A DNA stretch of 64,000 bases from the NCBI GenBank assembly GCA_964016885.1, contig OZ024741.1, forward strand, positions 125,116,001-125,180,000, written 5' to 3'. Below are positions 651 to 1,621 of this stretch, in pieces. Numbering within the stretch: position 1 is the first letter of the stretch; every line of letters starts with the position of its first letter. Made by a program: the position numbers and the translations under genes. Below the pieces are notes generated by a model. It saw nothing but the letters and a program-made list of their open reading frames with translations. It had not been told where the DNA came from and made no database searches. Source of the stretch: Eledone cirrhosa (taxonomy: Eukaryota).

Positions 651-1619
651 AAAGAATTATTACATGTGGGTTTAACCGTTACTGTATGGAAAACAACACC
701 TACAGGTTAGCAATTAAATAGAAAGAACCCTAAGTCAGAATCAAATCTCCGAAGTAGAGTTTTAAATTACCAACTTTATAACTATAAGCTTGCTGATACG
801 AATCTATTTCGTTTGCCACTGAAATGTGTAGCGTACAAGTCCACTTAAGGTTCTTTCTATTTAATTGCTAACCTGTAGGTGTTGTTTTCCATACAGTAAC
901 GGTTAAACCCACATGTAATAATTCTTTACATACATCTCACTGTGTAACACACTTCTCTCTGTGTAATGTATTTGTATTTGAGCTCAGTTGAAAATTCTCT
1001 GTTCTTCTTTGAGCTAATATTATTATTATTACTGTGAACTGCGGAATACTCTAATTCCGATCCTTGTATAATTAACGAGCTGCAAATTGTTGAGCTAATA
1101 AATTCGAATGGTTGGGCTGCTCTCTCTAGCATTTTCCCCAATTCATGAGAGCCGTTATTTAAAGCAAATAACACGTGTTTTCGCCCTGGCTCTGGGCAGC
1201 GTGTATATTTGCGTTCTCTCTTTCTATAAGGCTAGATGTGTGGCGGGCAATTCCACGCTTGCTGACTGAGGAACCTGTGGACTTGTACGCTACACATTTC
1301 AATGGCGAAACGAAATAGATTCGTTTCAGCAAGCTTATTGTTATAAGGTTGGTAATTTAAAACTCGGTAATTTAAAACTTCGGAGATTTGATTCTGACTT
1401 AGGGTTCTTTCTATTTAATTGCTAACCTGTAGGTGTTGTTTTCCATACAGTAACGGTTAAACCCACATGTAATAATTCTCTACACGCATCTCACTGTGTA
1501 ACACACTTCTCTCTGTGTAATATATTTGTATTTGAGATCAGTTGAACATTCTCTGTTCTTCTTTGAACCTAATAATATTATTATTACTGTGAACTGCGGA
1601 ATACTCTAATTCCGATCCT

Positions 1620-1621
<2 letters not shown>
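651..1621 (+). mobile_element. Non-coding HHR-bearing element: inverted 5' copy plus ~1.4 tandem units of a 554-nt monomer (PLE pseudo-LTR/retrozyme-like)
   Basis: 651-844 is the reverse complement of ~1277-1483; 846-1066 repeats directly at ~1400-1621 (offset 554); flanked by (GT)n and (GT)/(TA)n. Confidence 0.8.
1257..1334 (+). ncRNA. Type I hammerhead ribozyme
   Basis: Stem I GCTTGCTGA/TCAGCAAGC (9 bp), core CTGAGGA 1266-1272, GAAA 1307-1310, stem III ACGAA/TTCGT, cleavage triplet GUU (GUA in the inverted copy). Confidence 0.8.

What the first reader, a model, noticed from the sequence alone, without database searches (positions are those of the whole stretch)
651..1621. 554-nt monomer present as 1.4 tandem units plus an inverted head
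The sequence downstream of the HHR also occurs upstream of it (offset 554) with no ORF between. That fits reverse transcription of a circular or tandem RNA template. The inverted head breaks off inside HHR stem II.
Basis: partly seen in the sequence, partly recalled or inferred. Interest (0 to 1): 0.75.

Follow-up and report, generated by a model that had tools for sequence, protein, structure and literature searches.

The report
Penelope-style retrozyme with self-blocked hammerhead
This is one decayed copy of an abundant 554-base non-coding repeat in an animal genome that carries a hammerhead (self-cutting RNA) motif and was likely pasted into a microsatellite by a borrowed Penelope-type retrotransposon enzyme, a known kind of element, though here a built-in complementary stretch is predicted to hold the ribozyme switched off.

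Summary
Observation confirmed: 843-1067 repeats at 1397-1622 (95.6%, offset 554); 644-844 is an inverted copy of unit 1277-1488; a type I hammerhead motif lies at 1257-1334; no ORF has a Pfam family. Public runs of one related-looking organism hold the unit as a high-copy, collinear family. Outer ends there are fixed, not permuted: TA-joined loose ends fall at two sites 91-97 nt apart. Inner head-to-head junctions vary (7 seen). This matches the published insertion pattern of Penelope-like elements (partial tandem, inverted head, tail, microsatellite target), and animal retrozymes are already proposed to be their non-autonomous riders. Both arms cross the cut site, so the template was uncut: a circle or a multimer, not distinguishable here. 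One extra feature: 1234-1256 pairs with hammerhead loop II (21 of 23 pairs), is predicted to block the ribozyme, and is kept in a divergent copy. The partner enzyme, cutting and circles are untested; no genome was available. This scan has already reported the same architecture for other families in this and other genomes. Verdict: new member of a known kind.

The parts
478..650 (.). Left flank: (TA)n then (TG)n microsatellite, the likely target; no target-site duplication can be discerned
644..844 (-). Inverted 5'-truncated arm (head), equal to unit 1277-1488; holds loop II, stem III, cut site (GUA) and the 3' strand of stem I, but lacks the CUGANGA strand and has lost G12
843..853 (.). Head-to-head junction with microhomology (AC at 843-844 and GGTTC fit both arms)
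   Evidence: alignments
843..1067 (+). Upstream partial unit (0.41 unit)
1068..1622 (+). One full 554/555-nt unit, non-coding, about 38% G+C, ending at the long fixed end
1164..1212 (+). Predicted bulged hairpin (local z only -1.5)
1234..1256 (+). Anti-ribozyme arm, complementary to 1277-1299 (21 of 23 pairs)
   Evidence: variants
1257..1334 (+). Type I hammerhead motif with a long loop II; cut site 1325/1326 (GUU here, GUA in the head and in the public runs); A1273-C1306 mismatch at the base of stem II
1351..1379 (+). 15-nt tandem duplication, absent from the head and from the laid contigs (later mutation)
   Evidence: table 4
1525..1531 (+). Short fixed end of the family (also 971-977); copies elsewhere run into TA repeats here
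   Evidence: table 7
1615..1622 (+). Long fixed end of the family, used by this direct arm
   Evidence: table 7
1623..1652 (.). Right flank: short (TG)n then (TA)n

Best explanation
This is a decayed insertion of a high-copy, non-coding 554-nt repeat with a type I hammerhead motif, likely written into a TA/TG microsatellite by the reverse transcriptase and endonuclease of an autonomous Penelope-like element acting in trans on an uncut (circular or multimeric) RNA. Shown: the anatomy, the family, two fixed outer ends, variable inner junctions. Inferred: the endonuclease cuts the microsatellite; each DNA end primes reverse transcription at an internal fixed site of the RNA; one arm ran 780 nt from the long end through the ribozyme and 1.4 times round the unit, the other ran about 200 nt; the two 5'-truncated cDNA ends were joined head to head through microhomology; about 2% decay per copy followed. 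Predicted: the arm 1234-1256, made before the ribozyme, pairs with loop II and keeps the ribozyme off, which would supply uncut template.
For: Architecture equals the published PLE pattern: partial tandem, inverted 5'-truncated copy, optional tail, microsatellite bias (PMC8557442 passages; PMC3846280 passages). Two internal RT starts give the tail, and uncut RNA is the main template in vitro (PMC11167929 parts 1-2). Family: 469-590 records laid per run in 4 of 4 runs. Of the 18 contig-run loose-end rows shown, 7 run into TA repeats and all 7 lie at two sites: 22 contigs at 1067-1070/1622 and 16 at 971-977/1525-1531. Of 7 joints table 5, 6 read as head-to-head junctions, with inner ends at unit 1339|1377, 1364|1340, 1320|1393, 1365|1028, 1387|1474 and 1416|1319 (mapped); a seventh, about 1404|1326, comes from a second sample (read by eye). 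Hammerhead under constraint: 0 of 34 core and stem positions vary against 12 of 43 others, Fisher p 0.0008. Same layout nearby: a frameshifted RT plus GIY-YIG element at 5847-8693 with inverted arms, and two other hammerhead palindromes with a longer direct arm. Blocking helix: 9.6-16.2 kcal/mol more stable than the forced ribozyme fold; stem I probability 0.00 with the arm and 0.97 without.
Against: No partner element was found: the two PLE-like pieces in the window share no DNA with the unit (scores within shuffles). The head's outer end (unit 1488) is 37-43 nt short of the family's short end, so this copy does not itself obey the two-site rule. End and junction data come almost wholly from one sample of a related-looking organism (no run held over 26% of sampled words); only 24 of 193 loose-end rows were shown; 3 of the 6 joints have under 30 letters on the short side. 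Stem II is weak (A-C at its base in most copies). Majority letters in that organism break two helix pairs (1248/1285, 1244/1289), leaving 19 of 23, unphased.
Confidence: 0.78

Rival explanations
1. The unit is an internally deleted derivative of one autonomous PLE: pLTR plus remnants of the 5' and 3' untranslated regions, moving as a linear partial-tandem RNA. The 226-nt repeat is then simply its pLTR, and no RNA circle is involved.
For: PLE insertions have exactly this pLTR-body-pLTR plus inverted pLTR form, and pLTRs alone can move unrelated sequence in trans (PMC3846280 passages). Xenopus retrozymes are homologous to pLTRs (bioRxiv 2026.07.22.740005 part 3). Some contigs diverge after 1186-1187 (table 7).
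Against: No coding remnant. The inner ends vary from locus to locus, so the repeat length is not a fixed pLTR. The hammerhead has a full stem III, unlike the minimal PLE form (PMC4209133 part 1). This reading overlaps the best one and differs mainly in origin.
Confidence: 0.13
2. Rolling-circle reverse transcription of a self-cleaved, ligated 554-nt circle from random start points, giving variably permuted copies; the inverted head is a fold-back accident.
For: The unit folds better than shuffles as a circle (z -3.6, 60 shuffles; the opposite strand gives -2.7). Animal retrozymes do make circles (PMC7229834 passages). The three copies look identical at insertion.
Against: Outer ends are fixed at two sites, and head-to-head junctions recur at other loci.
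Confidence: 0.06
3. A local DNA rearrangement (duplication and inversion in an unstable microsatellite) or an assembly artefact of a solo repeat copy.
For: The flanks are long microsatellites and the junction has microhomology. No record spans the whole locus.
Against: The copies differ by 2-4% with private mutations, which a misassembly would not give; the 1067/1068 joint and inverted junctions exist in other copies.
Confidence: 0.03

Closest known systems
Metazoan non-LTR retrozymes (Cervera and de la Pena 2020, PMC7229834, passages read; Li, Clavereau and Pollet 2026, bioRxiv 10.64898/2026.07.22.740005, parts 1-3 of 5 read)
   Same: Non-coding, low-GC repeat unit with one type I hammerhead, high copy number, proposed mobilisation by PLEs; length within the 51-972 bp range of Li et al.
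   Different: Only one full hammerhead at this locus; longer than the 150-450 bp of the 2020 paper; inverted head and two fixed ends, which term searches of those two main texts did not find; a predicted blocking helix, which the 2020 paper says most animal retrozyme circles lack.
EN+ Penelope-like element insertions (PMC8557442, PMC3846280 passages; PMC11167929 parts 1-2 of 4)
   Same: Partial tandem, inverted 5'-truncated copy head to head, two alternative 3' ends, microsatellite target, hammerhead near the end, cDNA crossing the cut site.
   Different: No RT or GIY-YIG ORF; the two ends are 91-97 nt apart rather than 30-40; full rather than minimal hammerhead.
Plant LTR retrozymes, hammerhead viroids and some mussel retrozyme circles (as described in PMC7229834)
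   Same: Ribozyme predicted to be blocked by a complementary stretch of the same RNA.
   Different: Those in plants use type III ribozymes and LTR machinery; here the blocker sits directly 5' of stem I and pairs with a long loop II.

Membership tests
Metazoan non-LTR retrozyme | Type I hammerhead motif | tested here: met
   core invariant; Rfam did not detect it
Metazoan non-LTR retrozyme | Two or more consecutive units each with a complete hammerhead (the 'active' definition of Li et al.) | tested here: not met
   One complete motif here. This is a solo-type copy; whether the family has arrays could not be tested
Metazoan non-LTR retrozyme | No protein coded | tested here: met
Metazoan non-LTR retrozyme | Low G+C, unit of a few hundred bases | tested here: met
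   37.7% G+C, 554 nt
Metazoan non-LTR retrozyme | Multi-copy dispersed family | tested here: met
   in another organism's runs; no second copy in this window
Metazoan non-LTR retrozyme | Self-cleavage and circular monomer RNA | not testable with these tools
   no RNA holder listed
Autonomous EN+ Penelope-like element | ORF with RT and GIY-YIG endonuclease | tested here: not met
Autonomous EN+ Penelope-like element | Partial tandem plus inverted 5'-truncated copy | tested here: met
Autonomous EN+ Penelope-like element | Optional tail between two 3' ends (30-40 bp) | tested here: inconclusive
   Two family ends 91-97 nt apart; this head ends 134 nt from the long end, at neither
Autonomous EN+ Penelope-like element | Microsatellite or AT-rich target | tested here: met
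   table 7
Non-autonomous PLE derivative | Terminal sequence shared with an autonomous partner | tested here: inconclusive
   No likeness to the two PLE-like pieces in the window; genome not held

The most novel reading that the evidence does not exclude
This family carries a conserved off-switch for its own ribozyme: a 23-nt arm just 5' of stem I pairs with loop II, is kept across divergent subfamilies, and holds a 554-nt RNA circle uncut so that a Penelope enzyme can copy it from two fixed start points into both ends of one cut. The head here stops exactly at the top of that helix (unit 1277), as if the helix also stalls the enzyme.
Probability: 0.3. Interest if true: 0.6.

Novelty: new member of a known kind. 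Interest (0 to 1): 0.38.

Why it matters
The PLE origin of animal retrozymes rests so far on co-occurrence and pLTR homology. An ORF-less hammerhead unit that carries the PLE insertion marks (inverted head, two fixed ends, TA target) is footprint evidence for that link and gives a small substrate for testing trans-mobilisation. The predicted blocking helix bears on an open point in PMC7229834, namely how animal retrozyme RNAs avoid cutting themselves. The class is known and this copy is decayed, so the surprise is moderate.

Tried and rejected
Whole-genome copy analysis: no genome is held. Exact-pattern scans found nothing in metagenome contigs or viral contigs. No look-alike stretch among earlier findings by sequence or nearby. 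No RNA holder listed. Rfam weak hits (mir-297, SSRC8_2, SCARNA7) come from microsatellite or the palindrome. Loose ends and stops in raw-read run X5 at 768, 920 and 993/996 fall on AATT sites and are treated as library breaks; X5 was left out of the end counts. Summed contig depth rises about tenfold across 1320-1340, which might mean many copies start near the cut site, but it is no copy number and two junctions run 6-9 nt past the site, so I draw nothing from it. The 814/1160 joint is read as a collinear copy with a divergent ribozyme, not an inversion. A minus-strand hammerhead at 1164-1212 was considered by eye and rejected (no CUGANGA; plain hairpin). A full loop II-stem I pseudoknot was rejected on geometry (inference): 23 bp cannot be bridged by 3 nt. 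A general blocking arm in local hammerheads was rejected: 5 of 6 other motifs score like shuffles, and the sixth (9 of 300) pairs with its own inverted head.

Full report
Observation. The repeat structure is as described. Window 843-1067 recurs at 1397-1622 (95.6%, 226 nt, spacing 554/555), and 644-853 is the reverse complement of 1271-1488 (90.5%). The head maps to unit positions 1277-1488. No further copy lies in the 64 kb. The cassette sits between (TA)n(TG)n on the left and (TG)n(TA)n on the right, with no discernible target-site duplication. The head-to-head junction at 843-853 has microhomology to both arms. Seven frames of the element were scanned against Pfam and none passed a cut-off. 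The DNA is animal-like; 'cephalopod' is my recollection of a flanking SINE-like repeat plus the wording of earlier AI notes, and is untested.

Ribozyme. A type I hammerhead motif occupies 1257-1334: 9-bp stem I, CUGAGGA core, a weak stem II with an A-C mismatch at its base and a long loop II, GAAA, 5-bp stem III, cut site after 1325. Rfam missed it. In contigs of public runs, 0 of 34 core, stem III and inner stem I positions vary at the 10% threshold, against 12 of 43 other positions (Fisher p 0.0008; the H17 position was left out). This copy has decayed: U at the cut position where the laid contigs have A throughout, and the head has lost G12. With a single full motif it cannot release a cut-to-cut monomer.

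Family and ends. No genome was available. Four runs of one study held 12-26% of sampled words, so they are likely a related species or subfamily. In one search, 469-590 records were laid per run. Contigs tile the unit collinearly (923-1123, 1083-1209, 1175-1283), and a 384-nt contig crosses the ribozyme, so the 554-nt unit is a family property. Of 193 loose-end rows 24 were shown; of the 18 from contig runs, 7 continue into TA repeats, all at two sites: 1067-1070/1622 (22 contigs) and 971-977/1525-1531 (16 contigs). The three contig runs are one sample. Six of 7 joints read as head-to-head junctions with different inner ends, and a second sample adds one; three have short sides under 30 letters. 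So outer ends are fixed and inner ends vary, the reverse of random permutation. Against a tidy rule, this head ends at unit 1488, 37-43 nt short of the short end, in an ACAC motif that merges into the long (CA)n tract; erosion or a third start site are both possible.

One template. The three copies differ at 14 substitution columns. For 9 the run tables show a row, and in all 9 one allele holds 87-100%, so the other is private to this locus. The copies were therefore probably identical when inserted and have since decayed by about 2% each. Both arms cross the cut site, so the template was uncut there. A circle and a homogeneous linear multimer both fit.

Blocking helix. Window 1234-1256 pairs with 1277-1299 in 21 of 23 positions; the duplex energy is -30.1 kcal/mol against -13.7 plus or minus 3.0 for shuffles, with 1 of 300 as good. 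It is predicted to displace stem I (probability 0.00 with the arm, 0.97 without) and beats the forced ribozyme fold by 9.6-16.2 kcal/mol. One divergent contig of the second sample (X4 record 25, depth 3.1) has seven changes in the arm and four in loop II; by my hand count it still forms 21 pairs, with one in-register compensatory change (1244/1289, C-G to U-A), one G-U substitution and a one-base register shift. That is a single low-depth contig. Majority letters in the main sample give 19 of 23 pairs, unphased, with two pairs broken relative to the window. The other six hammerhead-like motifs in the window have no internal arm of this kind. The arm could also be a relic of an old fold-back junction, since the present head ends at the same base, 1277.

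Mechanism and literature. PLE insertions are described as partial tandems with an inverted 5'-truncated copy, an optional 30-40 bp tail and a microsatellite bias (PMC8557442, passages; PMC3846280, passages). A purified PLE protein starts reverse transcription at two internal RNA sites, which explains the tail, and uses uncut RNA (PMC11167929, parts 1-2 of 4). Animal retrozymes are proposed to be non-autonomous PLE derivatives (PMC7229834, passages; bioRxiv 10.64898/2026.07.22.740005, parts 1-3 of 5). The window itself holds a frameshifted RT plus GIY-YIG element with about 485-bp inverted arms (5847-8693) and two other hammerhead palindromes whose direct arm runs on some 60-70 nt beyond the head, but none shares DNA with this unit. 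The idea that both ends of one DNA cut prime the two arms is taken from earlier AI notes of this scan; I could test it only partly.

Novelty. No paper in the library held both 'retrozyme' and 'head-to-head'; the listing for 'hammerhead ribozyme' with 'octopus' showed no description of such a family (listing only); an octopus repeat paper has no mention of ribozymes in its main text (PMC13282606, term search). Subscription journals, Repbase, Dfam and supplements were not searched. Self-blocked hammerheads are known from plant retrozymes, viroids and some mussel circles. I file this as a solo-type copy of a new retrozyme-like, PLE-mobilised family. It works like a non-LTR retrozyme; strict membership is open because the two-hammerhead criterion fails at this locus and RNA could not be tested. 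Interest 0.38.

Noticed in passing
window 1654-1845 (+): A second, unrelated hammerhead element (core at 1695) sits in the same TA tract right after the finding; same family as 60201-60487.
   Followed up: partly
window 60201-60487: Hammerhead palindrome in (TA)n: inverted head about 104 nt, direct arm runs about 60 nt further before the TA repeats.
   Followed up: partly
window 14422-14705: Another hammerhead palindrome (core at 14508 on the minus strand) with a direct arm about 70 nt longer than the head.
   Followed up: partly
window 21999-22490: Palindrome with a type I hammerhead core on each strand (22149 minus, 22330 plus).
   Followed up: no
window 5847-8693: Frameshifted Penelope-type element (RT fragments and GIY-YIG-like C-terminus on the minus strand) with about 485-bp inverted arms containing (CA)n-rich subrepeats.
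   Followed up: partly
window 45931 (minus) and 46560-48219: Hammerhead-like core at 45931, and an AT-rich GIY-YIG-like fragment (47027-47674) framed by short inverted repeats.
   Followed up: no
window 18576-19196, 44696-45614, 55201-56273, 57389-57615, 60897-62108: Further long inverted repeats or palindromes, not examined.
   Followed up: no
window 2429-4042, 26466-35249: Several decayed LINE-type copies (RT and zf-RVT hits for 2429-4042; endonuclease-like frame at 33933-35249 by eye).
   Followed up: no
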